Source: an uncultured Thermoanaerobaculia bacterium (lineage in GTDB: Bacteria; Acidobacteriota; Thermoanaerobaculia; Thermoanaerobaculales; Sulfomarinibacteraceae). Taken from it: a stretch of 64,000 bases of DNA. The stretch covers positions 70,353 through 134,352 of the forward strand of contig CAYTTB010000003.1 of the NCBI GenBank assembly GCA_964440565.1, read 5' to 3'. A model generated the notes under the pieces. That model worked only from the letters and a program-made list of their open reading frames with translations. It had not been told where the DNA came from and made no database searches. A program made the position numbers and the translations under genes. Positions 1-17,403 of this stretch are shown piece by piece; position 1 is the stretch's first letter, and each line of letters starts with the position of its first letter.

Positions 1-380
1 CTGCCGCTGCCGGTCGTCCTGCCGGCGTCACGCCGCCGCCCCGGAGATGACCTTCCCGGAGCCCGGTGCGGCGCGAGGCACGTGCGCGCTTGGACCGTGG
101 CGGCGGCGGCCGGGCGAGAGCTCGTGCCCGCCTGGCCGGGCGGGGCGGGGCGTCCCGACGAGCGAGACGGAAGCGAGGCCGCGGTCGAGACCGCGTCCGG
201 GACCGAAGCCGCACCCAGGTCCGGTGGCGTCTGCCGCTGTCGCTGCCGCGGAATCCGTTCCTCTCCCCGCTGCCGATCGCGCCTCCGCCGCGACCTCCGG
301 GGACGGTGCCACTCACCCGGCCGTTCACGCCGTCGCTTCGGGAGACGGGGTAACGGCCGCCGCCGCGACGGCGGAGGGAT

Positions 381-396
381 GTTACGGGAGAGTGAC
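381..396 (+). promoter_or_regulatory. Candidate enhancer (UAS) palindrome GTTAC-N6-GTGAC about 94 bp upstream of the dsr sigma-54 promoter
   Basis: The sequence is GTTACGGGAGAGTGAC. Its reverse complement, GTCAC-N6-GTAAC, has the same half-sites and spacing as the repeat at 14321-14336. A degenerate copy (CTCACCCGGCCGTTCAC) lies at 312-328. Confidence 0.4.
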
Positions 397-480
397 ATTC
401 CTGACTCCAGCCGGACCGGGGCCGGGGCTGGATCCTGCTGACGGCGCGAGGGTTCACTGCAGGCCGGGGCCGGACCTCGC

Positions 481-496
481 TGGCACACGCGTTGCA
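481..496 (+). promoter_or_regulatory. Sigma-54 (RpoN) -24/-12 promoter of the dsr operon
   Basis: TGGCAC-ACGCG-TTGCA is an exact match to the TGGCAC-N5-TTGCW consensus. It lies just upstream of the first operon gene. Confidence 0.7.
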
Positions 497-518
497 CCTC
501 GCGGCCGCGGGGAGGCAG

Positions 519-1082
519 GTGAGCGCGAGGGATCTGCTGAGACGGCACCGAGAGGCGGTCCGGGACCGGTGGCTGGAGCTCATCCGCTCCACCTACCCGG
601 AGGACACGGCGCGGTTCCTCCGGACGGAGCGCGATCCGTTCGCCAACCCGGTGGGGGCGGCGCTCGAGCGGGGTACGGCCGGCGTGCTCGAGGCCATCGT
701 CGCCGGCGAGCCCGAGGCGCTGGAGGGGTCGCTCGATGCGCTACTCAGGATCCGCTCGGTGCAGGACCTCTCGCCGGCGGAGGCGGTGCGGGCGGTGGCG
801 CTGCTCGAGACGGCGGCGTGGGACGTGTTCGGCGAGGAGCTCGAGCGGCTCGGGGTGGCGGCGGCGCGAGATCTCCACCGCGTGCTGGATGGGGTGCTGC
901 TGGTGGCGTTCGAGGTGTACGCGCGGTGCCGCGAGCGGCTCCACGAGGTGCGTCTCCGCGAGGCGCTGCGGCGCCGGGCGGTGGAGCTGCGCCGGGCGGC
1001 GCGGGCCCGGTCGCGGGAGGAGACGGTGGCCGCCGGGGGCGGCCGCGGCGGTGAGGTCGGGAAAGGAGGCGGCTTCCGATGA
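519..1082 (+). CDS. RsbRD-N-terminal-domain-like small cytoplasmic protein, first gene of the dsr operon
   Basis: Frame of ORF 492..1082. The TTG at 492 lies inside the -12 box, so GTG 519 after GGGGAGG (509-515) is preferred. The FANPVG and IRSVQDLSPAEAV motifs resemble the RsbRD_N family. The stop overlaps the dsrM ATG (ATGA). Confidence 0.55.
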   Translation: MSARDLLRRHREAVRDRWLELIRSTYPEDTARFLRTERDPFANPVGAALERGTAGVLEAIVAGEPEALEGSLDALLRIRSVQDLSPAEAVRAVALLETAAWDVFGEELERLGVAAARDLHRVLDGVLLVAFEVYARCRERLHEVRLREALRRRAVELRRAARARSREETVAAGGGRGGEVGKGGGFR

Positions 1083-2071
1083 AGGCGTTGGTGGCCCTTG
1101 GGATCGTGGCCGCCCTGGCCGCGGGGCTGTGGCTCGCGGCCGGGGTCGCGGCGCTCCGCCCGGTGCTGGCGGTGGGGCTGCCGTACCTGGCCATGGCGGT
1201 CTTTCTCGTGGGCATGGTGGCGCGGGTGGTCCGGTGGGGGCGCTCCCCGGTCCCGTTCCGCATCCCCACCGTGGCGGGGCAGCAGCGCTCGCTGCCGTTC
1301 CTGCGCCATGACCCGCTGGACAGCCCGTACACCGGGTGGCAGGCGGCGGCGAGGGTGGCGCTGGAGGCGCTGCTGTTCCGCTCCCTGTTCCGGAACACGA
1401 GGGCCGCCTTCACCCGCGACCGGCGCCTGGTGGACCTGCCGAGCAAGTGGCTGTGGCTCGGGGCGCTGGCGTTCCACTGGTCGTTCCTGGTGGTGCTCAT
1501 CCGCCACCTCCGCTTCTTCATGGAGCCGGTCCCGCGGGCGGTGCTCCTGCTCGAGCGGCTGGACGGCCTGTTCCAGGTGGCGGTGCCCGCCCTTCTCGTC
1601 ACGGACGTGGTGATCGCTGCGGCGTTGCTGTACCTGCTGGGGCGCCGGCTCCTCGACGCCCGCCTCCGGTACATCTCGCTTCCCGCCGATTACGTCCCGC
1701 TGTTCCTCCTCCTGGGGATCGTGGGCAGCGGGATCCTCATGCGCTACGTGGACAAGGTGGACCTGGTCGCGGTCAAGGAACTGGCGCTGGGTCTGGTCAC
1801 GCTGAGCCCGGTGGTTCCGGAGGGTCTCGGGGTGCCGTTCGTGGTCCACCTGGGTCTGGTCTCGGCGCTGTTCCTCTACTTCCCGTTCTCGAAGCTGGTC
1901 CACATGGGCGGGGTGTTCCTGAGCCCCACCCGCAACCTGGCCAACGACAGCAGGGCTCGCCGCCACGTCAACCCGTGGAACCGGCCGGTGGAGGTCCACA
2001 CCTACGAGCAGTGGGAGGAGGAGTTCCGCGACAAGCTCCGGGCGGCGGGCCTGCCGGTGGAGGGGGAGTGA
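1079..2071 (+). CDS. dsrM: DsrM, NarI-like membrane di-heme b subunit of the DsrMKJOP complex
   Basis: 330 aa and polytopic, with the FPFSKLVHMGG motif. AAGGAGG lies 10 nt upstream of the ATG. Followed by dsrKJOP. Confidence 0.9.
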   Translation: MKALVALGIVAALAAGLWLAAGVAALRPVLAVGLPYLAMAVFLVGMVARVVRWGRSPVPFRIPTVAGQQRSLPFLRHDPLDSPYTGWQAAARVALEALLFRSLFRNTRAAFTRDRRLVDLPSKWLWLGALAFHWSFLVVLIRHLRFFMEPVPRAVLLLERLDGLFQVAVPALLVTDVVIAAALLYLLGRRLLDARLRYISLPADYVPLFLLLGIVGSGILMRYVDKVDLVAVKELALGLVTLSPVVPEGLGVPFVVHLGLVSALFLYFPFSKLVHMGGVFLSPTRNLANDSRARRHVNPWNRPVEVHTYEQWEEEFRDKLRAAGLPVEGE

Positions 2072-3678
2072 TGGCTGCGAAGACACCGGACGAGCTGCTC
2101 CAGATCGAGCTGGCGCCGCCGGCCGAGGACTGGATGGACCCGCACCTCGACTTCGAGGCCCGGCGCGGCACCTGGTCGTACCCCGGCGCGCCGAAGAACC
2201 TCGAGTACATGGGGTTCCCCAACCCGCGCGAGTGGTCCCCCACGGACGAGGACTGGAAGCTCCCCCCGGACTGGAGGGAGATCGTCCACCGGGGGTTCCT
2301 CGACCTGCTCCGGCGGTTCCGGTCGCTCCGGGTGTTCATGGACTGCTGCGTGCGGTGCGGGGCGTGCGCCGACAAGTGCCACTTCTTCCTGGGCTCGGGC
2401 GATCCCAAGAACATGCCCGTGCTGCGCGCCGAGCTGCTCAGGTCGGTCTACCGGAGGGACTTCACCACCGCGGGGAAGATCCTCGGGCGGCTCGCGGGTG
2501 CGCGCGAGCTCACCGTGGACGTGATCAAGGAGTGGTTCTACTACTTCTACCAGTGCACCGAGTGCCGCCGCTGCTCGGTGTTCTGCCCGTACGGGATCGA
2601 CACCGCCGAGATCACGATGATGGCCCGGGAGCTGCTCAACCTCCTGGGCATCAACATCAACTGGGTGGTGGAGCCGGTCGCCAACTGCCACCGCACCGGC
2701 AACCACCTGGGAATCCAGCCGCACACCTTCAAGGACAACATCGAGTTCCTCTGCGAGGAGCTCGAGGACGTCACCGGCATCCACATCGAGCCGCCCATCA
2801 ACAAGAAGGGGGCGGAGGTCCTGTTCGTGGTGCCGTCCGCCGACTACTTCGCCGACCCCGGCATCTACACCTTCATGGGGTACCTGCTGCTGTTCGAGCA
2901 CATCGGCCTCGACTACACCCTCTCCGCCTACGCCTCCGAGGGCGGGAACTTCGGCCTGTTCCTCTCCCACGACACCATGAAGCGGCTCAACTACAAGATC
3001 TACGCGGAGGCCAGGCGGCTGGGCGTCAAGTGGATCCTCGGCGGCGAGTGTGGCCACATGTGGCGCGTGATCCACCAGTACATGGACACCATGAACGGCC
3101 CCGCCGACTTCCTCGAGGTCCCGCGGTCCCCCGTGACCGGCACCGTGTTCGAGCACGCGGCGTCCACCCGGATGGTCCACATCTGCGAGTTCACCGCCGA
3201 CCTGATCCGCCACGGCAAGCTCCGGCTCGACCCGTCGCGCAACGATCACCTCAGGGTCACCTTCCACGACTCGTGCAACCCGTCGCGCGCCATGGGGCTG
3301 CTCGAGGAGCCGCGGTACGTGCTGCGGCACGTGGTGAACCACTTCCACGAGATGCCGGAGGGGACGATCCGGGAGAACACGTTCTGCTGCGGCTCCGGCG
3401 CCGGCCTCGGCAACGACGAGAACATGGAGATGCGGATGCGGGGCGGGTTCCCGCGCGCCAACGCGGTGCGCCACGTTCACGAGAGGCACGGCGTCAACCT
3501 GCTCGCCTGCATCTGCGCCATCGACCGGGCGGTGCTGCCGACCCTCATGGAGTTCTGGGTCCCCGAGGTGAAGGTCTCCGGAGTGCACGAGCTGGTCGGC
3601 AACGCGCTGGTGATGGACGGCGAGAAGGAGCGGACCACCGATCTGCGCGGGGAGCCGCTCCCCGGAAGGGAGGGCTGA
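2071..3678 (+). CDS. dsrK: DsrK, HdrD-like Fe-S/CCG-domain catalytic subunit
   Basis: Internal ATG of ORF 1336..3678, at the dsrM stop. Carries CCVRCGACADKCHFF and CTECRRCSVFCPYGID ferredoxin motifs. CCG-type halves are ECGHMW..HDSCNPSR and FCCGSGAG..CICAIDR. Confidence 0.92.
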   Translation: MAAKTPDELLQIELAPPAEDWMDPHLDFEARRGTWSYPGAPKNLEYMGFPNPREWSPTDEDWKLPPDWREIVHRGFLDLLRRFRSLRVFMDCCVRCGACADKCHFFLGSGDPKNMPVLRAELLRSVYRRDFTTAGKILGRLAGARELTVDVIKEWFYYFYQCTECRRCSVFCPYGIDTAEITMMARELLNLLGININWVVEPVANCHRTGNHLGIQPHTFKDNIEFLCEELEDVTGIHIEPPINKKGAEVLFVVPSADYFADPGIYTFMGYLLLFEHIGLDYTLSAYASEGGNFGLFLSHDTMKRLNYKIYAEARRLGVKWILGGECGHMWRVIHQYMDTMNGPADFLEVPRSPVTGTVFEHAASTRMVHICEFTADLIRHGKLRLDPSRNDHLRVTFHDSCNPSRAMGLLEEPRYVLRHVVNHFHEMPEGTIRENTFCCGSGAGLGNDENMEMRMRGGFPRANAVRHVHERHGVNLLACICAIDRAVLPTLMEFWVPEVKVSGVHELVGNALVMDGEKERTTDLRGEPLPGREG

Positions 3679-4064
3679 TGTACGACGCGGGCAAGATCGT
3701 CCCGGGGATCGTGATCTTCCTGCTGCTCGCCACCCTGCCGGTGTGGTGGAGCCTGGCCTCGGGCCAGGAGGTGCGCGCGCCCCGTCTCGAGCTGCCGGAG
3801 GGGCAGCCGGGGTGCGTGGAGCCGGCCGCGCGGATGCGCGCGGTGCACATGGAGCTGCTCGACACCTGGCGGGACCAGGTCGTGCGGTCCGGCGACCGGA
3901 CCTTCGTCACCTGGGACGGCCGGCGGTACGAGAAGAGCCTCACGGGGACGTGCCTCGGCTGCCACGACGACACGACGACGTTCTGCGACCGCTGCCACGA
4001 CTACGTGGCGGTCTCCCCCTACTGCTGGCAGTGTCACGTGGCTCGGAAGGGGGGTGGGCGATGA
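3678..4064 (+). CDS. dsrJ: DsrJ, periplasmic tri-heme cytochrome c
   Basis: 128 aa with an N-terminal TM/signal and three CxxCH motifs (CLGCH, CDRCH, CWQCH). The ATG overlaps the dsrK stop. Confidence 0.85.
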   Translation: MYDAGKIVPGIVIFLLLATLPVWWSLASGQEVRAPRLELPEGQPGCVEPAARMRAVHMELLDTWRDQVVRSGDRTFVTWDGRRYEKSLTGTCLGCHDDTTTFCDRCHDYVAVSPYCWQCHVARKGGGR

Positions 4065-4822
4065 GCTGCGACCGCAGGGGATTCCTCAGGCTCGCGGGGC
4101 TCGCGGCGCTGGCGGCCGCGGGGCGGCCGGCACGGGCGCGGGCGCAGGGGCCGCTGATCCCGGTGGAGGCACCGCTTCGGGGGACGCGGTGGGCGATGGT
4201 GGTGGACCTCGCCGTCTGCCGGGCGCACCCCGACTGCAGGCGGTGCATCGAGGCCTGCGACCGGACGCACAACATCCCCCACCTCGACGACCGCAGGCAC
4301 GAGATCAAGTGGATCTGGAAGGAGCCGTTCGAGCACGCGTTCCGCGACCAGGAGTTCGGCTACGTCCGTGCCGAGCTGCGCGAGGGCCCGGTGCCGCTGC
4401 TCTGCAACCACTGCGACAACCCGCCGTGCGTGCGGGTGTGCCCGACCCGGGCCACCTGGCGGCGCACGGACGGGATCGTGATGATGGACTGGCACCGGTG
4501 CATCGGCTGCCGCTACTGCGTCGCCGCCTGCCCGTACGGGTCGCGCAGTTTCAACTGGGTGGATCCCCGCCCGCACATCCCCGAGGTGAACCGCTCGTAC
4601 CCGACGCGGACCCGGGGCGTGGTGGAGAAGTGCACGTTCTGCGAGGAGCGGCTGGCGCACGGGAAGCTCCCCGCCTGCGTCGAGGCGTGCCCGTACGGCG
4701 CGCTGGTGTTCGGAGACATGGGCGATCCGGACTCGCGGGTGCGGCGGCTGCTGGCGGAGCGGTTCGCGATCCGGCGCAGGCCCTCGCTCGGGACGCAGCC
4801 GCAGGTCTACTACCTGGTGTGA
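4061..4822 (+). CDS. dsrO: DsrO, Tat-exported ferredoxin-like Fe-S subunit
   Basis: Twin-arginine signal DRRGFLRLAG and multiple CxxCxxCxxxCP clusters (CNHCDNPPCVRVCP, CIGCRYCVAACP, CTFCEERL). The ATG overlaps the dsrJ stop. Confidence 0.9.
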   Translation: MSCDRRGFLRLAGLAALAAAGRPARARAQGPLIPVEAPLRGTRWAMVVDLAVCRAHPDCRRCIEACDRTHNIPHLDDRRHEIKWIWKEPFEHAFRDQEFGYVRAELREGPVPLLCNHCDNPPCVRVCPTRATWRRTDGIVMMDWHRCIGCRYCVAACPYGSRSFNWVDPRPHIPEVNRSYPTRTRGVVEKCTFCEERLAHGKLPACVEACPYGALVFGDMGDPDSRVRRLLAERFAIRRRPSLGTQPQVYYLV

Positions 4823-4823
4823 G

Positions 4824-5987
4824 GTGACCATGCTGGAGAAGGCGCTTTCCGGTGACCGGCGGTACTGGGGGTGGGTGGCGCTGCTGGGCGCGATCGTCCT
4901 GGTCGGCTTCCTCAACTACCTCCGCCAGCTGGAGGTGGGCCTTGGCATCACCGGGATGTCCAGGGACGTCACCTGGGGGTTCTACATCGCGCAGTTCACC
5001 TTCCTGGTGGGCGTGGCGGCGTCGGCCGTCATGGTGGTGCTCCCGTACTACCTCCACAGCTTCAAGGTGTTCGCCAGGATCACGATCCTCGGCGAGTTCC
5101 TGGCGGTGGCGGCGGTGACCATGTGCCTGCTGTTCATCGTCGTGGACCTCGGCCAGCCCGGGCGGATGTTCAACATCGTGCTCCACCCGACGCCGCACTC
5201 GATCCTGTTCTGGGACATGATCGTCCTCAACGGGTACCTGCTCCTCAACGTGGTGATCACCCGGGTCACGCTGCTCGCCGAGCGGAAGGGGGAGCCGCCG
5301 CCGCGGTGGATCAAGCCGGTGATCTACCTCTCCATCCCGTGGGCGATCAGCATTCACACCGTGACCGCGTTCATCTACTCCGGACTCGCGGCGCGGCCGT
5401 TCTGGCTGACGGCGATCCTGGCTCCCCGCTTCCTGGCCTCGGCGTTCGCGTCCGGCCCGGCGCTGCTCGTCCTGCTCTGCCTGATACTGCGCCGGTTCTC
5501 CTCCTGGGATCCCGGGCTCGAGGCGATCGGGAAGCTGGCGGTGATCGTCACCTACGCCATGGCCATCAACGTGTTCTTCGTCCTCGTCGAGCTCTTCACC
5601 GCGCTCTACTCCGACATCCCGGAGCACGTGGTCCACTTCCGCTACCTGTACCTCGGGCTCGACGGCCACTCCCGGCTCGTGCCGTGGATGTGGGCCTCCG
5701 CGGTGCTCTCGGTGGTCTCGCTGGTCCTGCTCCTCGTCCCGGCGGCCCGTCGGCGGCCGGGCACGCTGGCCATCGCCTGCGCGGCCGTGTTCGTGGCCAT
5801 CTGGATCGACAAGGGGCTGGGGATGGTGGTGACGGGCTTCATTCCCAACCCGCTGGGCGAGATCACCGAGTACTGGCCCACGCTCCCCGAGGCGCTCATC
5901 GCGCTGGGCGTCTACGGCGTCGGGGCGCTCATGACCACGGTCTTCTACAGGATCGCGCTCGCGGTACGCCGGGAGGCGGAGGGGTGA
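4824..5987 (+). CDS. dsrP: DsrP, NrfD/PsrC-like integral membrane quinone-interacting subunit
   Basis: 387 aa with about 10 TM helices. Starts 2 nt after the dsrO stop; GTG 4824 or ATG 4830. Confidence 0.88.
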   Translation: MTMLEKALSGDRRYWGWVALLGAIVLVGFLNYLRQLEVGLGITGMSRDVTWGFYIAQFTFLVGVAASAVMVVLPYYLHSFKVFARITILGEFLAVAAVTMCLLFIVVDLGQPGRMFNIVLHPTPHSILFWDMIVLNGYLLLNVVITRVTLLAERKGEPPPRWIKPVIYLSIPWAISIHTVTAFIYSGLAARPFWLTAILAPRFLASAFASGPALLVLLCLILRRFSSWDPGLEAIGKLAVIVTYAMAINVFFVLVELFTALYSDIPEHVVHFRYLYLGLDGHSRLVPWMWASAVLSVVSLVLLLVPAARRRPGTLAIACAAVFVAIWIDKGLGMVVTGFIPNPLGEITEYWPTLPEALIALGVYGVGALMTTVFYRIALAVRREAEG

Positions 5988-5988
5988 G

Positions 5989-7653
5989 ATGAGCGCGCCA
6001 CCCCGCCGGGTGGTGGTGGTGGGGGCCTCGGCGGCGGGGCTCCGGTGCGCGGCCCGCCTGAAGCGGCTCCTCCCGGACTGCCGCGTCACGGTGGTGGAGG
6101 AGCGGGCGGCGTTCTCGTACGCGGCCTGCGGGCTGCCGTACGTGCTCTCGGGCGACATCGCCGAGCTCGACGACCTCCGGCGGACGGCCTACGGGGCGAT
6201 CCGCGACCGGCGGTACTTCGAGGCGGTGAAGGGGATCGAGCTCCTGGAGGGCCACCGGGCGGTGGCCGTGGATCCGGATCGCCGGCTCGTGACCGTGGAG
6301 GGCCCCTCGGGGCCACACGAGCTCGGCTGGGACGATCTGGTCCTCGCCACCGGCGCCCGGGGGCGCCGGCTCCCGGGCCAGCCGGAGCACCCGCGGGTGC
6401 GCACCTTCCACACCTGGGACGACGTGGCCCCCCTGAAGCGAGCCCTGGCGCGGGGCGAGCTCGAGCGGGTGGCGGTGGTGGGCGCGGGGATGGTGGGGGT
6501 GGAGCTCGCGGAGGCGTTCCGCTCGCTGTGGGGCGCGGAGGTCACGGTCCTGGAGGCCGCGCCGCACCCGCTCCCGGCGGTGCTGGACCCGGAGCCCGCG
6601 GCGCTGGTCGCGGCGGAGCTCGAGCGCCAGGGGGTGGACCTGCGGTGCGGGGCCCCGGTCGGGGCCGTCGTGCCGGACGGGGAGGCGGTGGCCGTGCGGG
6701 TCGGCGGCGAGGAGCTCCGGGTGGACGCGGTGGTGGTGGCGGTGGGCGTGGAGCCGCGGGGGGAGCTCGCGCGGGCCGCGGGGGTCGAGCTCGGGGCCAC
6801 CGGGGCGATCCGGGTGGACGGGCGGCTGGCCACCTCCGTGCCCCACGTCTGGGCGGCGGGGGACTGCGTGGAGGTGACGCACGCCGTCACGGGCGAGCGG
6901 GTGCACCTGCCGCTCGGGTCGCTGGCCAACCGCCAGGGGCGCGTCCTGGCCAACGTGCTCGCGGGCCGCGACGACCGGTTCGGGCCGGTGGCCGGGACGG
7001 TGGCGGTGAAGGCGTTCGACCTGGTGGCGGCGGCGACGGGGTGCTCGCTCGAGGCCGCACGGGCCCGCGGGCTGGCGGCGCGGGCGATATGGGTGACCAC
7101 CGACGACCGCGCCCACTACTGGCCGGAGGCGGAGCGCCTGTACCTCGAGGCGGTGGTGGAGGAGGGGAGCGGACGGCTGCTGGGGGTGCAGGCGGTGGGA
7201 CGCGATCGTGCGGCGGCCGCGGTGGATCTGGCCGCCCAGGTGATCCTGGCCGGGGGGACGGCGGACGACCTGCTGCGGATCGAGCACGGCTACGCGCCGC
7301 CGGTGGCGCCGGCGCTCAGCCCGCTGCACGTGCTGGCCGCCGCCGCGGCCAACGCGGTGGAGGGGGTGCGCCCGCTGCCGCCGCGCTCCACCCCCGGCGA
7401 GAGGGCCGTCCTCGACGTCCGCCTCCCGGAGGAGCGGGAGGCCCGGCCGTGGCCCGGGAGGTCGCGTCACGTGCCGCTCGAGGAGCTGCGGTCGCGGCTC
7501 GGGGAGGTGGCCGCCGGCGGGCCGTGGCTGGTGGTGTGCGAGCGGGGCGCCAGGTCCGCGGAGGCGGTCAGGCTCCTCTCCGCGACGGGGGTGGACGCGG
7601 TGTACCTCGGCGGCGGGATGCTCTGGCGGCACGCGGCGGGAGGCGGGCCGTGA
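5989..7653 (+). CDS. CoA-disulfide reductase-family flavoprotein with C-terminal rhodanese domain (persulfide/polysulfide reductase-like)
   Basis: VVVVGASAAG FAD fold, redox Cys in SYAACGLPY, a second dinucleotide fold VAVVGAGMVG, and C-terminal rhodanese loop CERGARS. Confidence 0.85.
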   Translation: MSAPPRRVVVVGASAAGLRCAARLKRLLPDCRVTVVEERAAFSYAACGLPYVLSGDIAELDDLRRTAYGAIRDRRYFEAVKGIELLEGHRAVAVDPDRRLVTVEGPSGPHELGWDDLVLATGARGRRLPGQPEHPRVRTFHTWDDVAPLKRALARGELERVAVVGAGMVGVELAEAFRSLWGAEVTVLEAAPHPLPAVLDPEPAALVAAELERQGVDLRCGAPVGAVVPDGEAVAVRVGGEELRVDAVVVAVGVEPRGELARAAGVELGATGAIRVDGRLATSVPHVWAAGDCVEVTHAVTGERVHLPLGSLANRQGRVLANVLAGRDDRFGPVAGTVAVKAFDLVAAATGCSLEAARARGLAARAIWVTTDDRAHYWPEAERLYLEAVVEEGSGRLLGVQAVGRDRAAAAVDLAAQVILAGGTADDLLRIEHGYAPPVAPALSPLHVLAAAAANAVEGVRPLPPRSTPGERAVLDVRLPEEREARPWPGRSRHVPLEELRSRLGEVAAGGPWLVVCERGARSAEAVRLLSATGVDAVYLGGGMLWRHAAGGGP

Positions 7654-8705
7654 GCTCCCCCGGGGTGGTCATGGTGGGAGTCCACCACCGGGCGGCGGAG
7701 CCCGGCGCCGTGGAGCGTGCCCACCGGGCGGCCGGGGGCGCGGGCCTCGGCCCCGTCCTCGCGGCCGGCGCCGCGGGCGCGGTGGCGGTGGTGACCTGCC
7801 ACCGGGTGGAGCTGTACCTGGAGGGCTGCCCGGCGGTGCGCGCCCCGGAGCTGCTCCGGGCGTGGGGCGGGGCCGCGGCGGGCCGCCTGGTGGACGCGGG
7901 GGAGGTGGTGGTGCTGGCGGGCGAGGCCGCCGGACGGCACCTGCTGCGGGTCGCGGCCGGCCTCGAGGCGGCGGTGCTGGGCGACGACCAGGTGCTGGGC
8001 CAGGTCCGGGAGGCGTACGCCGCGGCGTGCCGCGCCCGCGCGGCAGGGCCGCTCGTGCACCGGCTGTTCCACGCCGCGTTCCGGGCCGGCAAGCGGGTGC
8101 GGTCCGAGACCGGCCTGGGCCGCGGCGGCCGCTCCCTGGCGGGGGTGGCGGCGGCGGAGATCGGGCGCCGCCTGGGGGGGCTGCGGGGGCGGTCGGTGCT
8201 GGTGCTCGGAGCGGGCGAGATGGCCTCGCTGACCGCGCGCCGCCTGGCGCGGCGCGGCGTCGGGCGGATCGTGGTGAGCAACCGCACGTCGGAGCGGGCC
8301 CGAGCGCTGGCCGCACGGGTGGGCGGCGAGGCGGTGCCCTGGTCGTGGCGGGTGGCGGCGCTTTCCGCGGCGGACGCGGTGGTGGTGGGCACCGCGGCGC
8401 GCGGGCCGGTGCTCGCCGCGGCGGAGCTCGCGGCCGCCGCCCGCCGGCGGGGCCGGCTGGTCGCCGTGGACCTCTCCATGCCGCGCAACCTGGAGCGGCC
8501 CGCCGGCCAGGTGCCCGGGCTCGAGGTGCTGGACCTCGAGGCGCTGGCCGGCTGTCTGGATGGGGAGCGGCGGCGCCGGGAGGGCGAGGTGCGGCGGGCG
8601 GAGCGGATCGTGGAGGAGGAGCTGAGCGCCTGGCTCGCGTGGGTCTCGGAGCGGGCGGCGCGGGAGGGCGGGGAACGGGGACGGCGCGGGCTGGCGGCGG
8701 GCTGA
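7650..8705 (+). CDS. hemA: Glutamyl-tRNA reductase
   Basis: Tail of ORF 6045..8705. Has the active-site motif TCHRVELY (TCNRxE family signature) and NADPH fold VLVLGAGEMA. GTG 7650 overlaps the previous stop; ATG 7671 is an alternative start. Confidence 0.8.
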   Translation: MSSPGVVMVGVHHRAAEPGAVERAHRAAGGAGLGPVLAAGAAGAVAVVTCHRVELYLEGCPAVRAPELLRAWGGAAAGRLVDAGEVVVLAGEAAGRHLLRVAAGLEAAVLGDDQVLGQVREAYAAACRARAAGPLVHRLFHAAFRAGKRVRSETGLGRGGRSLAGVAAAEIGRRLGGLRGRSVLVLGAGEMASLTARRLARRGVGRIVVSNRTSERARALAARVGGEAVPWSWRVAALSAADAVVVGTAARGPVLAAAELAAAARRRGRLVAVDLSMPRNLERPAGQVPGLEVLDLEALAGCLDGERRRREGEVRRAERIVEEELSAWLAWVSERAAREGGERGRRGLAAG

Positions 8706-8748
8706 GGACGGCGTCGCGGGACGGCGCGCGACGAGAGGGGGGGAGGAC

Positions 8749-10536
8749 ATGTTCCCGGTGATGCTCGACATCCGCGGGCGGCGGTGCCTGGTGGTGGGTG
8801 GCGGCGGGGTGGCGCTGCGGAAGGTGGAGGGGCTGCTCGCCGAGGGCGGGGAGGTCACGGTGGTGGCGCCCGAGGTGGTGGATCCCATCGTCCGGCTCGC
8901 CGGGGCGGGGGCGCTTCGGCTCGAGCGGCGCCCCTACCGCGACGGGGAGGCGGAGGGATACGCCCTGGTCTTCGCCGCCACGGACGACCGCGAGGTGAAC
9001 CGGCGGGTGTTCGAGGACGCCGAGCGGGCGGGAGTCTGGGTCAACGTGGCCGACGACCCCGAGCTGTGCACGTTCCACCTCCCGGCGACGATCCGCCGGG
9101 GGAGACTGCGGATCGCCCTCGCTTCCGGGGGCGAGGCCCCGTTCGTGGTCCGCCGGCTCCGGCAGGCGCTGGAACGGCGCCTGGGCCAGGAGTGGGGCGA
9201 GTGGCTCGAGGCGGCGGCGCGGTTCCGCGAGCGGGTGCGCGCGGAGGTGGCGGACCGGAGGCTCCGCGAGCGCCTCTACGACCGGTTCTTCCGGAGCTCG
9301 GTGGACACCCGGCAGCTCTCGGTGCGCGTGCCCACGGAGCGCGAGGTGGCCGCCTGGCTGGAGGAGGGCGGTGCGGAGCCTCCCGCGCACCGCGGGAGCG
9401 TGGGCGGCGGGAGGCCGGAGCGGCGGGCGGGCCTGGTGTCGCTGGTGGGGGCGGGGCCCGGGGAGCCCGGCCTCCTCACCCTCCGGGGCCACCGGCGGCT
9501 GATGGCCGCGGACGCGGTGGTGTACGACCGCCTGGCCGCCCCGGCGCTGCCGCCCGAGCTCCCGGCGCGGGTGGAGCTGCACTGCGTGGGGAAGACCGCC
9601 GGGCACCACCCGGTGCCGCAGGAGGAGATCACCGCGCTCCTCGTGCGGCTGGCGCGCGAGGGCAAGCGGGTGGTGCGGCTGAAGGGTGGCGACCCGTACG
9701 TCTTCGGGCGCGGCGGCGAGGAGGCCGAGGCGCTCCGGGCGGCGGGCGTCCCGGTGGAGGTGATCCCGGGGGTGACGGCCGGGCTGGCGGCGCCGGCGTG
9801 GGCCGGGATCCCGGTCACCCACCGCCGGGAGGCGGTCCGGGTCACGCTGGTCACCGCGCACGAGTGCATCAAGAGCGCTGGCCCTCAGGTGCGATGGGAC
9901 CTGCTCGCCCGGGACCCGCACGCCACGCTCGTGGGCTACATGGGCGTGACCTCGCTGCCCACGGTGGTCGAGCGGCTCCTCGCGGCGGGGATGGATCCGG
10001 CCACGCCGGCGGCCGTCGTGCAGCGGGGAACCACCAGCGGGCAGCGCACCGTGCGGGCGTCCCTGGCCGAGCTGCCGCGGGCCGCGCGGGAGGCCCGGAT
10101 CCGGCCTCCGGCGGTGTTCGTGATCGGTCCCACCGTGCGCCACGCGGAGCGGCTAGACTGGGTGGGGCGGCTGCCCCTGGTCGGACGGCGGGTGGCGGTG
10201 GCACCGGAGGCGTGGGGGCTGGCGGAGGCGCTGGAGCTCGCCGGCGCGGAGGTGGTCCGGGTGCCGGTGCCGCTCACGCCGGCGGCGCGGGTGGCGCTCG
10301 GGGCGCTGCCGCTCACGGACTGCGTCGTCGGGTCGAGCGCCGAGGTGGAGGCGCTGGACGGCGAGCGGGGCGGCCCGGGGTGGGAGGGACGGGTGGGCGC
10401 GTGGTGTCTGGGTCGTGCCGCGGCGGAGAGGGCGCGGGCCCTGGGGTGGGAGACGGTGGTGGAGCTCGGGAGGGACGACGGCGATGAGGCGGCGGTGGTG
10501 GCCGCGATGGCGGGTGAGCTGGCAGCGGTGGGCTAG
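8749..10536 (+). CDS. cysG: Siroheme synthase (precorrin-2 dehydrogenase/ferrochelatase plus uroporphyrinogen-III C-methyltransferase) with an extra C-terminal HemD-like segment
   Basis: N-terminal CLVVGGGGVALRK Rossmann fold, SUMT core LVGAGPGEPGLLTLRG..VVRLKGGDP, then about 130 further residues. RBS GGGGGAGG. Confidence 0.85.
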   Translation: MFPVMLDIRGRRCLVVGGGGVALRKVEGLLAEGGEVTVVAPEVVDPIVRLAGAGALRLERRPYRDGEAEGYALVFAATDDREVNRRVFEDAERAGVWVNVADDPELCTFHLPATIRRGRLRIALASGGEAPFVVRRLRQALERRLGQEWGEWLEAAARFRERVRAEVADRRLRERLYDRFFRSSVDTRQLSVRVPTEREVAAWLEEGGAEPPAHRGSVGGGRPERRAGLVSLVGAGPGEPGLLTLRGHRRLMAADAVVYDRLAAPALPPELPARVELHCVGKTAGHHPVPQEEITALLVRLAREGKRVVRLKGGDPYVFGRGGEEAEALRAAGVPVEVIPGVTAGLAAPAWAGIPVTHRREAVRVTLVTAHECIKSAGPQVRWDLLARDPHATLVGYMGVTSLPTVVERLLAAGMDPATPAAVVQRGTTSGQRTVRASLAELPRAAREARIRPPAVFVIGPTVRHAERLDWVGRLPLVGRRVAVAPEAWGLAEALELAGAEVVRVPVPLTPAARVALGALPLTDCVVGSSAEVEALDGERGGPGWEGRVGAWCLGRAAAERARALGWETVVELGRDDGDEAAVVAAMAGELAAVG

Positions 10537-11413
10537 CCTGGGGGCGGTGCTGGCGGCCGCCGCCCTCGCCTCCGCCGGTGAGCCCCCGGGCGAGATCCAG
10601 CGGCTGGGCGTGGTGGGGTTCTACAACCCGCGGCTCATGGTGCTCAAGTACCAGCCGCTGGCCGACTACCTCTCGGACACGACGCCGTGGCGGTGGGAGC
10701 TCGACATCTCCACCGACTACCTCAGCGTCGAGGACGGGCTGTGCGGGGGGCGTCTGGCGCTGGCCTACCTGGGTCCGTTCACCTACACGAGGACGCACGA
10801 GCGGTGCGGCGCCGAGCCGGTGGTGCGCCTCGACACGGCCGGCCGGCCCACCTACCGGAGCCTGATCCTGGTGCGGCACGACAGCGACATCCGGCGGCTC
10901 GCCGACCTCGCGGGGAAGGTGTTCGCGTTCGGCTCGCCGCTGTCCACCTCCTCGCACCTGGTCCCCCGGGCCATGCTGCTCGAGGCCGGGCTCGAGCCGG
11001 GCCGCGACCTCCGGTGCCGGTACTACGGGCACCACGACCGGGCGGCCCGGGCGGTGGTGCTGCGCGAGGCGGCCGCCTGCGGCGTCCGCGACCTGGTGGG
11101 CGAGCGGTTCGTGGGGCGCGGCCTCAGGGTGCTGGCCGCCTCGCGGCCGCTGCCCAACTTCCCGCTCGTGGCCGGGCCGGGCACCGGCCCCGAGGTTCGC
11201 CGGGAGGTGATCCGGGCGCTGGTGGACCTGCCGGAGCGTGATCCCGGTCTGCGTGCCCGGATCGCGCGCTGGGACGAGGAGCTCGCGGCGGGGTTCGCGC
11301 GGTGCTCCGCCGCGGACTACGCCCCGATCCGCGCGCTGATACTCCGGGTGTTCGGCCCGCGCGGTCTCACCGCGGGACCGGCGGAGCTGCGGTGCGGGCC
11401 GGTGAGCCGATGA
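10484..11413 (+). CDS. PhnD-like periplasmic substrate-binding protein (sensor-associated)
   Basis: Signal peptide, then the GFYNP..YQPLADYL..AYLGPFTY..LILVR..GKVFAFGSPLSTSSHLVPR pattern typical of phosphonate-type binding proteins. The stop overlaps the kinase ATG. Confidence 0.7.
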   Translation: MRRRWWPRWRVSWQRWASLGAVLAAAALASAGEPPGEIQRLGVVGFYNPRLMVLKYQPLADYLSDTTPWRWELDISTDYLSVEDGLCGGRLALAYLGPFTYTRTHERCGAEPVVRLDTAGRPTYRSLILVRHDSDIRRLADLAGKVFAFGSPLSTSSHLVPRAMLLEAGLEPGRDLRCRYYGHHDRAARAVVLREAAACGVRDLVGERFVGRGLRVLAASRPLPNFPLVAGPGTGPEVRREVIRALVDLPERDPGLRARIARWDEELAAGFARCSAADYAPIRALILRVFGPRGLTAGPAELRCGPVSR

Positions 11414-12881
11414 GACTCCGGCTCGGCCTCCGCACCAAGTTCTTCCTCTACTCGAACACCCTCATCGTGGTGACGATGACCCTGGTGGCGCTGCTCGGCG
11501 TGGCGCACGAGCGGCGGGCGCGGTACGACGAGGTGAGGCGGCGGGCGCTGAGCATCACCGAGGCGCTCGCGATCCCCATCACCGACGCGCTGCTCTACGA
11601 GGAGCTCGATCTCGTCGCCGAGAGCGGGCTCATCGACAGCTACCTCGAGGAGGTGGTGAGCCGGAACCGTGACCTGGTGCTGTACGTGGTGGTGACGGAC
11701 CGGAGAGGCCGCATCACCCACTCCACCCGGTGGGACTGGCTGGGGGAGCGGTTCGCCCGCGCGCTGGGGCGCGAGGCGGTGGGAGCCCCGCCGGTGGTGG
11801 AGACGTTCGAGGTGGACGGGGTGGAGACGCTCGAGGTGCGCACGACGCTCAACATCTCCACCCGCTACTGGGGCTGCCTGGCGGCGGGGTTCTCGCTCGA
11901 GGGTGTCCGCGAGCGCGTGGCGCTGCTCGCCAGGCGAGCGGCGACGGTGGCGTTCCTCCTCATGCTGGCGAACTCGCTCCTCACCGCGATCTACGTGGAG
12001 TCGCTGATCCGTCCGATCTTCGAACTCAACGAGCGGATGAAGCGGGCGGGCAGGGGCGATCTCTCGGTCCGGGCCGACGAGCGGCGGGGAGACGAGGTGG
12101 GCGAGCTCGCCCGGGCGTTCAACCGGATGATGGACGAGCTGGAGGCGGCCCGGGATCGGGAGGAGGTGCGGAAGGCCCAGCTCGCGCACACCGAGAAGAT
12201 GGTGGCGGTGGGGACGCTGGCCGCCGGCGTCGCGCACGAGGTCAGCAACCCGCTCGCCGGGATCCTGGCGTGCCTCGAGAACCTCCGGCGTGACCCCGAC
12301 GACGTCGAGATGCGCGAGCGCTACCTGGAGCTGATCCGCGAGGGACTCGAGCGCATCGAGCGCACCGTGCGCAATCTGCTCGACTTCTCGAGGCCGCGGG
12401 AGATGCAGCTCGAGCCCACGTCCGTCAATCACGCGCTCCAGCACGTGGCGGAGCTCGTGGAGTACCAGCTGCGCAAGGCGGGGATCGAGCTCGAGTGGGA
12501 CCTGGATCCCGAGGATCCGGTGGTGATGGCGGACCACTTCCAGATGGAGCAGCTGTTCCTCAACCTGGTGCTCAACGCGATCCAGGCGATGCCGGAGGGC
12601 GGGACGCTCACGCTCCGCACCCGGGCGGCACGGGGGCGGGTGGTCGCGGAGGTGGCCGACACCGGGTGCGGGATCGCGCCCGGGAACCTCGGCCGGATCT
12701 TCGATCCGTTCTTCACCACCCGGGAGGTGGGCGAGGGGACTGGCCTCGGCCTGGCCGTGAGCGATACCATCGTGCGGGCGCACGGCGGGTCCATCGAGGT
12801 GGAGAGCGCCGTGGGCCGCGGCTCGACGTTCCGGGTCGTCCTGCCCTCGAGGCGGGGCCCGCGCGGGGGGGAGGAACCGAC

Positions 12882-12885
<4 letters not shown>
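11410..12885 (+). CDS. Membrane sensor histidine kinase (two TM helices, periplasmic domain, HAMP, HisKA, HATPase)
   Basis: H-box VAHEVSNPLAGI, N box LNLVLNAIQA, G boxes DTGCGI and GTGLGLAV. Overlaps both neighbours via ATGA. Confidence 0.85.
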
Positions 12886-14270
<1,385 letters not shown>

Positions 14271-14280
14271 GCGCGGGGAC

Positions 14281-14336
14281 GTCACCCGCGCGTGACGCGC
14301 GGCCGGGACCGCCGTTCCGGGTCACCCGCGCGTAAC
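14281..14336 (+). promoter_or_regulatory. Two copies, 40 bp apart, of a 16-bp palindromic box (candidate activator binding sites)
   Basis: GTCACCCGCGCGTGAC at 14281-14296 and GTCACCCGCGCGTAAC at 14321-14336. They share a 13-nt exact core. The proximal copy is centred about 92 bp upstream of the -24 GG. Confidence 0.45.
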
Positions 14337-14418: not shown

Positions 14419-14434
14419 TGGCATGCCGCTTGCT
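14419..14434 (+). promoter_or_regulatory. Sigma-54 -24/-12 promoter
   Basis: TGGCAT-GCCGC-TTGCT has the exact GG-N10-GC spacing of the RpoN consensus. Confidence 0.7.
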
Positions 14435-14586: not shown

Positions 14587-14736
14587 CGGCGCCCCCGCTC
14601 TTGCCGCCACGGTGGGTGGGGGGAGAAGGCGGCGCGCGGCTCGCTGCGGCTGGATCCCCGCATGGCGGGGGGCCGCCGCCGACGGCCGGGACGGGCGCGG
14701 CGCCGGGATCCCTTCGCCCCCCCGGACCGGCGGGGC

Positions 14737-17336: not shown

Positions 17337-17403
17337 CTCAACCTCCCCGTGAAGTTCCACCGTTCGGGGGACCGGCGCTCCGCTCCCCTCTCGCCGTGAT
17401 CGA

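What the first reader, a model, noticed from the sequence alone, without database searches (positions are those of the whole stretch)
300..521. dsrMKJOP operon driven by a consensus sigma-54 promoter that shares an upstream palindrome with the sRNA locus
TGGCAC-ACGCG-TTGCA at 481-496 is a perfect RpoN promoter. It lies only about 23 nt before the first operon gene (GTG 519), so the TTG start proposed by the ORF track sits inside the -12 box.

About 94 bp upstream, GTTAC-N6-GTGAC (381-396) is the reverse complement of the GTCAC-N6-GTAAC box. That box lies about 92 bp upstream of the sigma-54 promoter at 14419. The half-sites, spacing and distance are the same in both places. A degenerate third copy sharing TCACCCG is at 312-328.

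This links the DsrMKJOP respiratory complex to an enhancer-binding protein. The most plausible candidate is the one encoded 12 kb downstream at 12882..14270. Sigma-54/EBP control of dsrMKJOP is not something I know to be established.
Basis: partly seen in the sequence, partly recalled or inferred. Interest (0 to 1): 0.6.

Follow-up and report, generated by a model that had tools for sequence, protein, structure and literature searches.

The report
Sigma-54 switch on sulfite-reduction genes
The sulfur-respiration (dsr) genes of this uncultured, probably acidobacterial bacterium sit behind activator-dependent sigma-54 promoters that share one conserved upstream palindrome. The likely activator is encoded at the end of the same cluster, together with a periplasmic oxyanion sensor built like the known arsenite sensor AioXSR. 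I found no published report of this way of controlling dsr genes.

Summary
- TGGCACACGCGTTGCA (481-496) is a full-consensus sigma-54 promoter 23 nt before the GTG start (519) of dsrT, the gene preceding dsrMKJOP.
- GTTACgggagaGTGAC (381-396) starts 100 bp upstream of it.

The same arrangement recurs in this genome. A GTNAC-N6-GTNAC box lies 90-144 bp upstream of a sigma-54-like promoter at seven promoters, all within 32 kb. They serve:
- a rhodanese gene
- dsrM2K2
- yeiH
- dsrAB (identical 18-nt promoter core)
- dsrT-MKJOP
- the small RNA
- a porin

About 0.26 such pairings are expected by chance.

Across relatives of the same order:
- The box is GTTAC-N6-GTAAC.
- It sits about 98 or about 110 bp upstream of the promoter, roughly one helical turn apart.
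- It precedes dsrT in 16 of 30 loci and dsrA in at least 31 of 35 genomes.
- It is essentially absent outside the order.

The NtrC-type activator at 12882-14270 has orthologs in all 36 relatives that carry dsrT. They always lie 9-13 kb downstream on the same strand.

The box fits the published AioR site (GTTNC-N6-GNAAC), and the binding protein-kinase-activator trio is built like AioXSR.

No transcript or binding data could be obtained. The "third copy" at 312-328 is not supported.

Verdict: a new member of a known regulatory kind.

The parts
381..396 (.). Upstream activator site (UAS) GTTACgggagaGTGAC of the dsrT promoter. It starts 100 bp upstream of the TGG.
   Evidence: Orthologous GTTAC-N6-G[T/A]AAC boxes lie 97-110 bp upstream in 15 related dsrT loci. 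The nearly identical extended box ATGTTAC-N6-GTAACATTCC occurs in L031.
481..496 (+). Sigma-54 (-24/-12) promoter TGGCACACGCGTTGCA. The predicted transcription start is near 506-508.
   Evidence: An identical 18-nt core lies before dsrA at C3:62782. TGGCAY-N5-TTGCA is conserved before dsrT in 17 of 30 loci. rpoN is present in the genome. The start site is inferred, not mapped.
519..1082 (+). dsrT, an RsbRD_N-domain protein and the first gene of the operon. It starts at GTG 519 behind GGAGG (511-515).
   Evidence: Pfam PF14361, E = 1.1e-14. N-terminus aligns with orthologs. Position directly before dsrM matches the literature description of dsrT (PMC10504309).
1079..2071 (+). dsrM
   Evidence: NCBIfam NF038037 DsrM, 475 bits, above its cut-off.
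2071..5987 (+). dsrK, dsrJ, dsrO and dsrP. The internal gene borders are approximate.
   Evidence: DsrK NF045796, 736 bits. Fer4 domains for DsrO and NrfD for DsrP (4824-5987). dsrJ is inferred from the gap only.
5989..10536 (+). Three further genes without gaps: a CoA-disulfide-reductase-like flavoprotein (5989-7653), an unassigned ORF (about 7669-8761) and a CysG-type siroheme synthase (8749-10536).
   Evidence: No terminator-like site on the + strand between 481 and 14561.
10484..11413 (+). Secreted PhnD/PtxB-family solute-binding protein with no transporter partner. It is the likely ligand sensor (the 'X' of an XSR trio).
   Evidence: PF12974, E = 2e-54. Signal peptide MRRRWW...AALASA. Best solved-structure matches are PtxB 1e-30, ArrX 9e-16 and AioX 1e-9.
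11410..12885 (+). Sensor histidine kinase with a periplasmic Cache-like loop, HAMP, HisKA and HATPase domains.
12882..14270 (+). NtrC-type sigma-54 activator (REC-AAA+-HTH_8). It is the candidate binder of the GTTAC-N6-GTAAC boxes.
   Evidence: It carries D56, GESGTGK, GAFTGA and a C-terminal helix-turn-helix. Orthologs (68-86% identity, against 49% or less for paralogs) occur in 36 of 36 relatives with dsrT and in 1 of 24 without. They always lie 9-13 kb downstream of dsrT on the same strand.
14281..14336 (.). Tandem UAS pair, GTCACCCGCGCGTGAC (14281-14296) and GTCACCCGCGCGTAAC (14321-14336). They are 40 bp apart and begin 11 nt after the activator's stop codon.
14419..14434 (+). Sigma-54 promoter TGGCATGCCGCTTGCT of the small-RNA gene.
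   Evidence: The same box-plus-promoter element lies directly after the activator gene in relatives (G008:C40:70179 and G017:C16:9997; L114).
14561..14590 (+). Intrinsic terminator ending the small RNA. It probably also stops read-through from the long operon.
   Evidence: It is the only + strand terminator-like site in 1-18000.
17512..17527 (.). UAS GTTACCCGGGCGTTAC of the porin promoter, 109 bp upstream.
17403..17418 (-). Sigma-54 promoter TGGCACACTCCTTGCT.
16176..17336 (-). Porin_4-family outer-membrane protein. ATG 17336 lies 67 nt after the promoter.
   Evidence: PF13609, E = 2.7e-8. Start codon and ribosome-binding site read.

Best explanation
The element at 381-496 is an enhancer-dependent sigma-54 promoter that drives dsrT-dsrMKJOP. 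With high likelihood the transcript continues through the whole 13.8-kb gene string to the sensor genes.

**Proposed mechanism**
1. A secreted PhnD/PtxB-type binding protein (10484-11413) binds a periplasmic oxyanion and signals to the membrane kinase (11410-12885).
2. The kinase phosphorylates the NtrC-type activator (12882-14270) on D56.
3. The activator assembles on GTTAC-N6-GTAAC-type boxes that lie about 98 or about 110 bp upstream of the -24 element.
4. By DNA looping and ATP hydrolysis it opens the closed sigma-54 holoenzyme complex.

**Regulon**
The same boxes and promoters precede six further transcription units in a 32-kb island:
- a secreted rhodanese plus a DedA-family protein
- dsrM2K2
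- a YeiH-family transporter
- dsrAB-dsrL-dsrN...dsrC
- a small RNA
- a porin

The whole sulfite-reduction pathway would therefore be switched on as one regulon. Because the sensor genes sit at the end of the dsrT operon, the circuit would also feed back positively on itself.

**Shown here**
- the motifs and their non-random pairing
- their conservation and helical phasing across an order of bacteria
- presence of rpoN
- the activator's functional motifs
- the activator's strict co-occurrence and synteny with dsr genes

**Inferred**
- use of the promoter in vivo
- which protein binds the box
- operon continuity
- the ligand
For: **Motifs**
- The motifs are at the stated coordinates.
- The genome holds only 18 exact TGGCAC-N5-TTGC sites. 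Two with the identical 18-nt core CTGGCACACGCGTTGCAC precede dsrA and dsrT.

**Pairing in this genome**
- Nine of 23 GTNAC-N6-GTNAC sites pair with 7 sigma-54-like promoters at 90-144 bp. All lie in C3:56.5-87.9 kb. Expected 0.26, P about 1e-8.
- Each paired promoter is followed within 40-250 nt by a ribosome-binding site and a gene start. The genes are sulfur-metabolism genes, a porin, or the small RNA.

**Machinery**
- rpoN is present, and the genome has 18 activators of this class.
- The activator has D56, Walker A, GAFTGA and an HTH_8 domain.

**Relatives**
- Seventeen of 30 dsrT loci carry TGGCAY-N5-TTGCA 40-80 nt before dsrT. Sixteen of them have GTTAC-N6-G[T/A]AAC at 97-110 bp.
- The composite pattern gives 84 hits in 40 of 61 relatives, against 1 hit for the backwards control.
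  - 57 of the 84 are the perfect palindrome, although the pattern left positions 3 and 14 free.
  - Distances cluster at 96-101 and 108-111 bp.
- At class level the composite occurs in 36 of 49 genomes of the own order and in 3 of 152 elsewhere.
  - 35 of the 36 dsrA-positive genomes of the order have it.
  - It lies within 2 kb upstream of dsrA in at least 31 of 35.

**Link to the activator**
- Activator orthologs occur in 36 of 36 relatives with dsrT and in 1 of 24 without. They always lie 9-13 kb downstream on the same strand.
- The strongest, tandem boxes lie directly after the activator gene.
- Published AioR sites are GTTNC-N6-GNAAC or GT[CT]CG-N6-CG[GA]AC, upstream of sigma-54 promoters (PMC3673622). 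A footprinted site is given in PMC5335332.
- AioXSR is the same trio of binding protein, kinase and sigma-54 activator (PMC5908839).
Against: - There is no transcript, start-site or binding evidence.
- The phyletic link between the activator and dsr is not independent of synteny, because the genes travel as one cluster. It shows association, not binding.
- This genome's boxes deviate from the family consensus (GTGAC/GTCAC halves). As a loose pattern, the palindrome occurs at random frequency genome-wide (23 observed against 19.6 expected).
- The leader from the predicted start (about 507) to GTG 519 would be only about 12 nt, the shortest among the relatives.
- In 13 of 30 relatives dsrT has no promoter of its own and follows dsrC directly. 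The internal promoter is therefore dispensable, and read-through from the dsrA promoter may also reach dsrT here.
- By sequence the binding protein is closer to the phosphite transporter protein PtxB than to AioX or ArrX. Membership of the sensing subfamily is therefore unproven.
Confidence: 0.75

Rival explanations
1. The promoters and boxes are functional, but a different protein binds the box. This could be another of the 17 remaining activators or a non-activator regulator. The clustered activator would then control only the small RNA next to it.
For: - No binding data exist.
- The genome has 18 sigma-54 activators.
- G058 and G060 have real-looking composites but no detected ortholog of the activator.
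- A note on another acidobacterial genome (e1-4976852) proposed a different, iron-sulfur-sensing activator for dsr there.
Against: - The boxes next to the activator gene and those at the dsr promoters are the same motif at the same distance.
- I saw no other activator of this class in conserved synteny with the dsr cluster. This rests on limited checks: the paralog positions listed, compared in detail for one relative only. I did not search for orthologs of the second activator in the window.
- G058 and G060 are fragmented genomes (92% complete in 410 contigs and 82% complete). They belong to genera in which other members do have the ortholog.
- The box fits the published site of AioR-type activators, which belong to the same kind of trio.
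Confidence: 0.12
2. The system works as described, but the signal is not a sulfur oxyanion. The binding protein would sense phosphite, phosphonate or an arsenic oxyanion, or it would be part of a transporter, and dsr control would be secondary.
For: The best solved-structure matches are PtxB (phosphite, 1e-30) and phosphonate-binding proteins, then ArrX and AioX. NCBIfam places the protein in the phosphate/phosphite/phosphonate binding-protein subfamily.
Against: - No permease or ATPase gene is adjacent. The neighbours are the kinase and the activator, with overlapping stop and start codons.
- The trio is conserved at the end of the dsr cluster in all 36 dsrT-bearing relatives.
- Every target identified is a sulfur-metabolism gene, a porin or the small RNA.
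- Identity to PtxB is only about 33%.
Confidence: 0.15
3. The motif pair at 381-496 is a chance match. dsrT-MKJOP is transcribed only by read-through from upstream or from an unrecognised housekeeping promoter.
For: - Within the window alone the promoter pattern is not enriched (4 observed against 2.2 expected).
- In 13 of 30 relatives dsrT has no promoter of its own.
Against: - The promoter core is an 18-nt match to the one before dsrA.
- Co-occurrence statistics argue against chance.
- Promoter, box and spacing are all conserved across genera whose DsrT proteins are only 35-46% identical.
- The backwards control gave 1 hit against 84.
Confidence: 0.03

Closest known systems
AioX-AioS-AioR three-component system controlling the sigma-54 promoter of the arsenite oxidase genes aioBA, and its relatives ArxXSR and ArrXSR. 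Sources: PMC5908839, PMC3673622, PMC5335332.
   Same: - The parts list is the same: a secreted PhnD-like binding protein without a transporter, a membrane histidine kinase, and an NtrC-type sigma-54 activator.
- The trio sits next to the respiratory enzyme genes it controls.
- The activator site is a 16-bp palindrome in the same frame. Published sites are GTTNC-N6-GNAAC in Burkholderiales and GT[CT]CG-N6-CG[GA]AC in Rhizobiales. The site here is GTTAC-N6-GTAAC.
- The site lies upstream of a -24/-12 promoter.
   Different: - The targets are dsr (sulfite-reduction) genes, sulfur-transfer and transport genes, a porin and a small RNA, not a molybdenum arsenic enzyme.
- There are at least 7 promoters instead of one or two.
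- The host is an acidobacterial lineage rather than Proteobacteria.
- The binding protein is closer in sequence to PtxB than to AioX or ArrX. Its ligand is unknown and is probably not arsenic.
Classical NtrB/NtrC-type control of sigma-54 promoters, such as glnAp2, ZraSR and AtoSC (established knowledge).
   Same: - The activator has REC, AAA+ and HTH_8 domains with a GAFTGA motif.
- Palindromic sites lie about 100 bp upstream.
- Some promoters have tandem sites.
- The spacing depends on the face of the helix.
   Different: - A third, periplasmic binding-protein component is present.
- The target pathway differs.
- The best NCBIfam matches (AtoC, NtrC, ZraR) are all below their cut-offs, so this is not an ortholog of any named activator.
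Regulation of dsrAB and dsrMKJOP in Desulfovibrio. These genes fall in the predicted Rex regulon (PMC4045070). The sigma-54 regulome of D. vulgaris is described in PMC4641369.
   Same: The target genes are the same: dsrAB, dsrC and dsrMKJOP.
   Different: - In Desulfovibrio these genes are assigned to the redox repressor Rex. They are not mentioned in the sigma-54 regulome paper.
- A Desulfobacteraceae dsrT locus examined here has no sigma-54 promoter. By eye it carries TTGACA/TATAAT-like housekeeping-promoter hexamers instead.
- The scheme found here is activator-dependent and lineage-specific.
TtrSR (tetrathionate) and TorTSR (TMAO) electron-acceptor sensors (established knowledge; NF040750 gave a weak hit).
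   Same: A periplasmic binding module senses a respiratory substrate and switches on the matching reductase genes.
   Different: - TtrS carries the PhnD-like domain fused to the kinase, and TtrR is not a sigma-54 activator.
- TorT belongs to a different binding-protein family.

Membership tests
Sigma-54 (RpoN)-dependent promoter | GG and GC dinucleotides exactly ten bases apart within TGGCAC-N5-TTGCW. | tested here: met
   TGGCACACGCGTTGCA at 481-496 matches 11 of 11 consensus positions.
Sigma-54 (RpoN)-dependent promoter | The genome encodes RpoN. | tested here: met
   PF04552 scores 227 bits at C26:14452-14928.
Sigma-54 (RpoN)-dependent promoter | A cognate activator with an AAA+ domain and GAFTGA loop, and an upstream activator site about 80-150 bp away. 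| tested here: met
   GAFTGA and GESGTGK are present. The box lies 100 bp upstream. Conserved phasing at about 98 and about 110 bp.
Sigma-54 (RpoN)-dependent promoter | A transcription start 11-13 nt downstream of the -12 GC, and dependence on rpoN. | not testable with these tools
The organism is uncultured.
AioXSR-type three-component (XSR) sensor | A secreted PhnD-fold binding protein encoded with a kinase and a sigma-54 activator, with no ABC permease or ATPase. | tested here: met
   PF12974 plus a signal peptide. The neighbours are cysG upstream, then the kinase and activator with overlapping stop and start codons.
AioXSR-type three-component (XSR) sensor | The activator site is a 16-bp GTT..N..AAC palindrome upstream of a sigma-54 promoter. 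| tested here: met
   The consensus GTTAC-N6-GTAAC (57 of 84 sites) fits GTTNC-N6-GNAAC of PMC3673622. It also fits the half-sites of the degenerate motif in PMC5335332, though not that motif's central positions (for example the fixed A at position 9).
AioXSR-type three-component (XSR) sensor | The binding protein belongs to the AioX/ArxX/ArrX subfamily rather than to the transporter PhnD/PtxB proteins. | tested here: inconclusive
   Solved-structure search gives PtxB 1e-30, ArrX 9e-16 and AioX 1e-9. No tree was built because reference sequences could not be fetched.
AioXSR-type three-component (XSR) sensor | The ligand is an arsenic oxyanion and the target is an arsenic-respiratory enzyme. 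| tested here: not met
   No ligand test was possible. All identified targets are dsr or sulfur genes, a porin and a small RNA. This is therefore filed as 'works like', not as an Aio/Arx/Arr system.
dsrT-dsrMKJOP gene cluster | An RsbRD_N-type DsrT directly before DsrM, followed by DsrK, J, O and P. | tested here: met
   PF14361. DsrM NF038037 and DsrK NF045796 score above their cut-offs. Fer4 and NrfD domains for DsrO and DsrP. DsrJ is inferred from the gap only.

The most novel reading that the evidence does not exclude
The PtxB-like periplasmic protein may be a dedicated sulfite sensor, or a sensor of a closely related sulfur oxyanion. Sulfite is a pyramidal XO3 species like arsenite, and it is close in shape to the phosphite bound by PtxB.

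If so, this trio would be the first described three-component system that senses the substrate of dissimilatory sulfite reduction and switches the pathway on. Through sigma-54 it would control the enzyme (dsrAB), its membrane complex (dsrMKJOP and dsrM2K2), sulfur-transfer and transport proteins, an outer-membrane porin for substrate entry, and a small RNA for post-transcriptional tuning.

It would also mean that the AioX-type sensor family is not restricted to arsenic oxyanions.
Probability: 0.35. Interest if true: 0.75.

Novelty: new member of a known kind. Interest (0 to 1): 0.6.

Why it matters
How uncultured acidobacterial dsr-carrying bacteria decide when to run dissimilatory sulfur metabolism is unknown. 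It is not even settled in which direction they run it. The papers on acidobacterial dsr clusters that I read describe gene content but not regulation (PMC6018796, PMC10504309).

The result has four practical uses:
- It gives a defined activator site, a defined activator and a soluble periplasmic sensor protein. The ligand question can therefore be tested in vitro without cultivating the organism.
- It gives a sequence signature: GTTAC-N6-GTAAC about 98 or 110 bp upstream of TGGCAY-N5-TTGC. This delimits the regulon in metagenomes and flags accessory genes that belong functionally to the pathway (YeiH transporter, secreted rhodanese, porin, small RNA, possibly aprBA).
- It shows that the same pathway is wired differently in different lineages. 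In Desulfovibrio it is assigned to Rex, and here to a sigma-54 activator.
- It widens the AioXSR-type sensor architecture beyond arsenic metabolism.

Tried and rejected
2. The search for related loci with DsrT found only one distant Desulfobacteraceae locus. I used the genome search on relatives instead.
3. Loci from the genome search are not turned to the strand of the match. My first alignment therefore showed the reverse complement of dsrM for 17 loci. I redid these on the minus strand.
4. tblastn of the activator against plasmids gave about 44-47% identity to any NtrC-type protein. The best-E hit, from Bosea sp. AS-1, is not next to aio genes. Full-length similarity therefore cannot place the protein with AioR.
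5. I tried to fetch an aio-bearing plasmid by an accession recalled from memory (JF809815). It is not in the collection, so no direct AioR or AioX sequence comparison was made.
6. The 'third copy' at 312-328 is rejected. It misses 3 of 8 fixed positions. At 69 bp from the main box it does not match the second-box spacings seen at other regulon promoters (34-40 bp in this genome, about 93-103 bp in two relatives).
7. Enrichment of the palindrome alone is rejected as an argument. The loose pattern is at random frequency genome-wide (23 against 19.6). Only its location and its pairing with promoters are significant.
8. The Rfam scan found no known RNA family at the small-RNA locus. The only hit in the window is a Moco riboswitch elsewhere.
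Full report
**1. What is at 300-521**

- TGGCAC-ACGCG-TTGCA occupies 481-496 and matches all eleven specified positions of the sigma-54 consensus TGGCAC-N5-TTGCA.
- The TTG at 492 that an ORF list offers as a start is the TTG of the -12 element, so it cannot begin a protein made from this promoter.
- The next in-frame start is GTG 519. It is preceded by GGAGG at 511-515 and lines up with the N-termini of orthologous proteins.
- With a start site 11-13 nt after the GC at 494-495, the leader would be about 12 nt. This is inferred, not mapped.
- GTTAC-GGGAGA-GTGAC lies at 381-396, 100 bp (start to start) upstream of the TGG.
- At the small-RNA locus, GTCAC-CCGCGC-GTAAC (14321-14336) lies 98 bp upstream of TGGCAT-GCCGC-TTGCT (14419). 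A second, perfect palindrome, GTCACCCGCGCGTGAC, lies 40 bp further up at 14281-14296, eleven bases after the activator's stop codon.

**2. Genes**

The first gene (519-1082) has an RsbRD_N domain and sits directly before dsrM. That is the description of dsrT in the literature, where it is only speculated to be regulatory (PMC10504309).

The genes that follow are:
- dsrM (NF038037, above cut-off)
- dsrK (NF045796, above cut-off)
- dsrO and dsrP, by their Fer4 and NrfD domains, with the dsrJ position inferred from the gap only
- a CoA-disulfide-reductase-like flavoprotein
- an unassigned ORF
- a CysG-type siroheme synthase
- a secreted PhnD/PtxB-family binding protein
- a HAMP histidine kinase
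- an NtrC-type sigma-54 activator

Junctions are tight or overlapping. The only terminator-like site on the + strand between 481 and 18000 is the small-RNA terminator at 14561. One 13.8-kb operon ending in its own sensor genes is therefore likely, though inferred.

The activator has the phospho-acceptor D56, Walker A GESGTGK, the GAFTGA loop and a C-terminal helix-turn-helix. The genome encodes RpoN and 18 activators of this class.

**3.

The window is C3:70353-134352 of a genome of 3.46 Mb in 166 contigs, with 74% G+C.

Alone, neither motif is enriched. The window has 4 promoter-like matches against 2.2 expected. The genome has 23 GTNAC-N6-GTNAC sites against 19.6 expected from half-site frequency.

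Their arrangement is what stands out.
- Eleven of the 23 sites are on contig C3.
- Nine of them lie 90-144 bp upstream of seven sigma-54-like promoters, all between C3:56.5 and 87.9 kb.
- The chance expectation is 0.26 pairings (Poisson P about 1e-8) and 0.18 sites in that interval.
- Sites containing a GT[AT]AC half, which is rare in this GC-rich genome (380 copies), number 10 against 1.8 expected. Eight of them are in the island.

**4. The regulon in this genome**

The seven promoters are followed by ribosome-binding sites and starts of these units:

| Promoter | Position | Downstream unit |
|---|---|---|
| P1 | C3:56617 | secreted rhodanese and a DedA/VTT protein |
| P2 | C3:58681 | a dsrM/dsrK paralog pair |
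| P3 | C3:61440 | YeiH-family putative sulfate-exporter-type transporter |
| P4 | C3:62782 | dsrA, dsrB, a DsrL-like flavoprotein, dsrN, ... dsrC |
| P5 | window 481 | dsrT-MKJOP and onward |
| P6 | window 14419 | the small RNA |
| P7 | window 17418-17403, minus strand | a Porin_4 protein |

P4 and P5 share the identical 18-nt core CTGGCACACGCGTTGCAC while their flanks differ.

**5. Conservation**

No genome of the same genus is available. The DsrT proteins of the 36 relatives that have one (same family or order) are only 33-49% identical. Intergenic conservation at that distance is therefore informative.

After correcting strand orientation, the dsrT loci show the following:
- 17 of 30 carry TGGCAY-N5-TTGCA 40-80 nt before the gene.
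- 16 of those have GTTAC-N6-G[T/A]AAC starting 97-110 bp upstream of the TGG.
- One relative (L031) has ATGTTAC-TGATCA-GTAACATTCC where this genome has ATGTTAC-GGGAGA-GTGACATTCC.
- In the other 13 loci dsrT follows dsrC with a short spacer.

A composite pattern (GTNAC-N6-GWNAC, 74-98 nt, TGGYAY-N5-TTGC) gave 84 hits in 40 of 61 genomes, against a single hit for the pattern read backwards.
- Positions 3 and 14 were left free, yet 57 of the 84 sites are the perfect palindrome GTTAC-N6-GTAAC.
- Distances fall into two groups, 96-101 bp (24 sites) and 108-111 bp (48 sites). The groups are about one helical turn apart.
- That spacing is what face-of-helix-dependent looping between an activator and the sigma-54 holoenzyme predicts.

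At class level (201 genomes):
- The composite occurs in 36 of 49 genomes of the own order and in 3 of 152 outside it. Those three look like chance.
- dsrA occurs in 36 genomes of the order and in one outside it.
- 35 of the 36 dsrA-positive genomes of the order have the composite.
- It lies within 0.4 kb or about 1.8 kb upstream of dsrA in at least 31 of 35 relatives.
- Where dsrT lacks its own promoter, the composite before dsrA is 7.4-10 kb upstream of dsrT. There the whole cluster would be one sigma-54 unit.

A Desulfobacteraceae dsrT locus has no sigma-54 promoter. By eye it carries TTGACA/TATAAT-like housekeeping-promoter hexamers.

Named metagenome-assembled genomes with the closest binding-protein orthologs (60% identity) are Thermoanaerobaculia, in the Acidobacteriota. 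One of them has the composite right after its activator gene.

**6. Which activator**

Orthologs of the protein at 12882-14270 are sharply separated from paralogs: 68-86% identity against 49% or less. They occur in all 36 relatives that have dsrT and in only one of the 24 that lack it, a 79%-complete genome. They are always on the same strand, 9-13 kb downstream of dsrT.

In the checks I made, no other activator of this class is syntenic with the cluster. The tandem, best-matching boxes sit immediately after this gene.

This makes it the prime candidate. The caveat is that co-inheritance within one gene cluster shows association, not binding.

Two relatives (G058, G060) have real-looking composites without a detected ortholog. 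Both are fragmented assemblies.

**7. Comparison with known systems**

Notes from other agents on related genomes pointed to AioXSR. I checked this in the literature and against solved structures.
- AioX/AioS/AioR is a periplasmic PhnD-like binding protein, a kinase and a sigma-54 activator that switch on the arsenite oxidase genes (PMC5908839).
- Proposed AioR sites are GTTNC-N6-GNAAC in Burkholderiales and GT[CT]CG-N6-CG[GA]AC in Rhizobiales. Each is tied to a -24/-12 promoter (PMC3673622).
- A footprinted site is GTTCGGATTTCCGAAC (PMC5335332).
- GTTAC-N6-GTAAC is an instance of the Burkholderiales form.

The architecture and the DNA site therefore match. The targets do not.

The binding protein matches PtxB (1e-30) better than ArrX (9e-16) or AioX (1e-9). 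Membership of the sensing subfamily is therefore open, and the ligand is unknown.

In Desulfovibrio, dsrAB and dsrMKJOP are assigned to the Rex regulon (PMC4045070). The D. vulgaris sigma-54 regulome paper does not mention dsr. Searches combining sigma-54 or RpoN with dsr terms found no report of such control.

**8. Verdict**

This is a lineage-wide sigma-54 regulon for dissimilatory sulfite reduction, most likely run by an AioXSR-like three-component sensor. The mechanism is of a well-known kind, so I class it as a new member of a known kind. Its value lies in the new target pathway and in a directly testable sensor.

Still missing are a mapped transcription start, binding evidence and the ligand.

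Noticed in passing
G000 contig C15:30380-31000 (outside the window): A sigma-54-like element, CGGTACAAGACTTGCT (30692-30677, minus strand), lies upstream of aprB. Four GT[AT]AC half-sites lie within the 300 bp upstream of it, in a genome with only 0.11 such half-sites per kb. aprBA may therefore be a weaker member of the same regulon. No full palindrome is present.
   Followed up: partly
G000 contig C3:48188-48420 (22 kb upstream of the window): A full box, GTTACGCCTTCGTTAC (48378), lies about 20 nt before an ATG and 190 bp downstream of a sigma-54-like CGGCACGGCCGTTGCA. The order is the reverse of all other cases. It may be chance or a different regulatory use.
   Followed up: no
L001:10783 (C3:62782) versus window 480-497: The dsrA and dsrT promoters share an identical 18-nt core, including the 5-nt spacer ACGCG, while the flanks are unrelated. 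This could reflect selection for equal promoter strength or a local conversion. It is unexplained.
   Followed up: partly
84 composite sites in relatives: The box-to-promoter distance is bimodal, at 96-101 and 108-111 bp, with almost nothing in between. This suggests strict helical phasing.
   Followed up: yes
window 30164-30314 (+): Rfam finds a Moco (molybdenum cofactor) riboswitch, RF01055, at 52.8 bits. It is the only Rfam family above threshold in the window.
   Followed up: no
window about 42199-42702 (-) (C3:112551-113054): A second sigma-54 activator gene lies in the window. I did not analyse its targets or its orthologs.
   Followed up: no
G039:C4:1754-2911 and G182:C1:711397-712548: G039, of the same order, has a dsrA with an in-frame TGA and no dsrT, activator ortholog or composite. 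This may be a decaying cluster. G182 belongs to another family of the class. It has an intact dsrA but no composite, so it must regulate dsr differently.
   Followed up: no
window 17422-17435 and 17540-17560 (-): The porin promoter region carries extra GT[AT]AC half-sites (three of them between C3:87864 and C3:87900). A small palindrome, GTGAACCGATTCAC, lies directly upstream of the -24 element.
   Followed up: no
window 10484-10536: The start of the binding-protein gene (ATG 10484, with a signal peptide) overlaps the end of the cysG-type gene by about 50 nt. This fits translational coupling within one long operon.
   Followed up: partly
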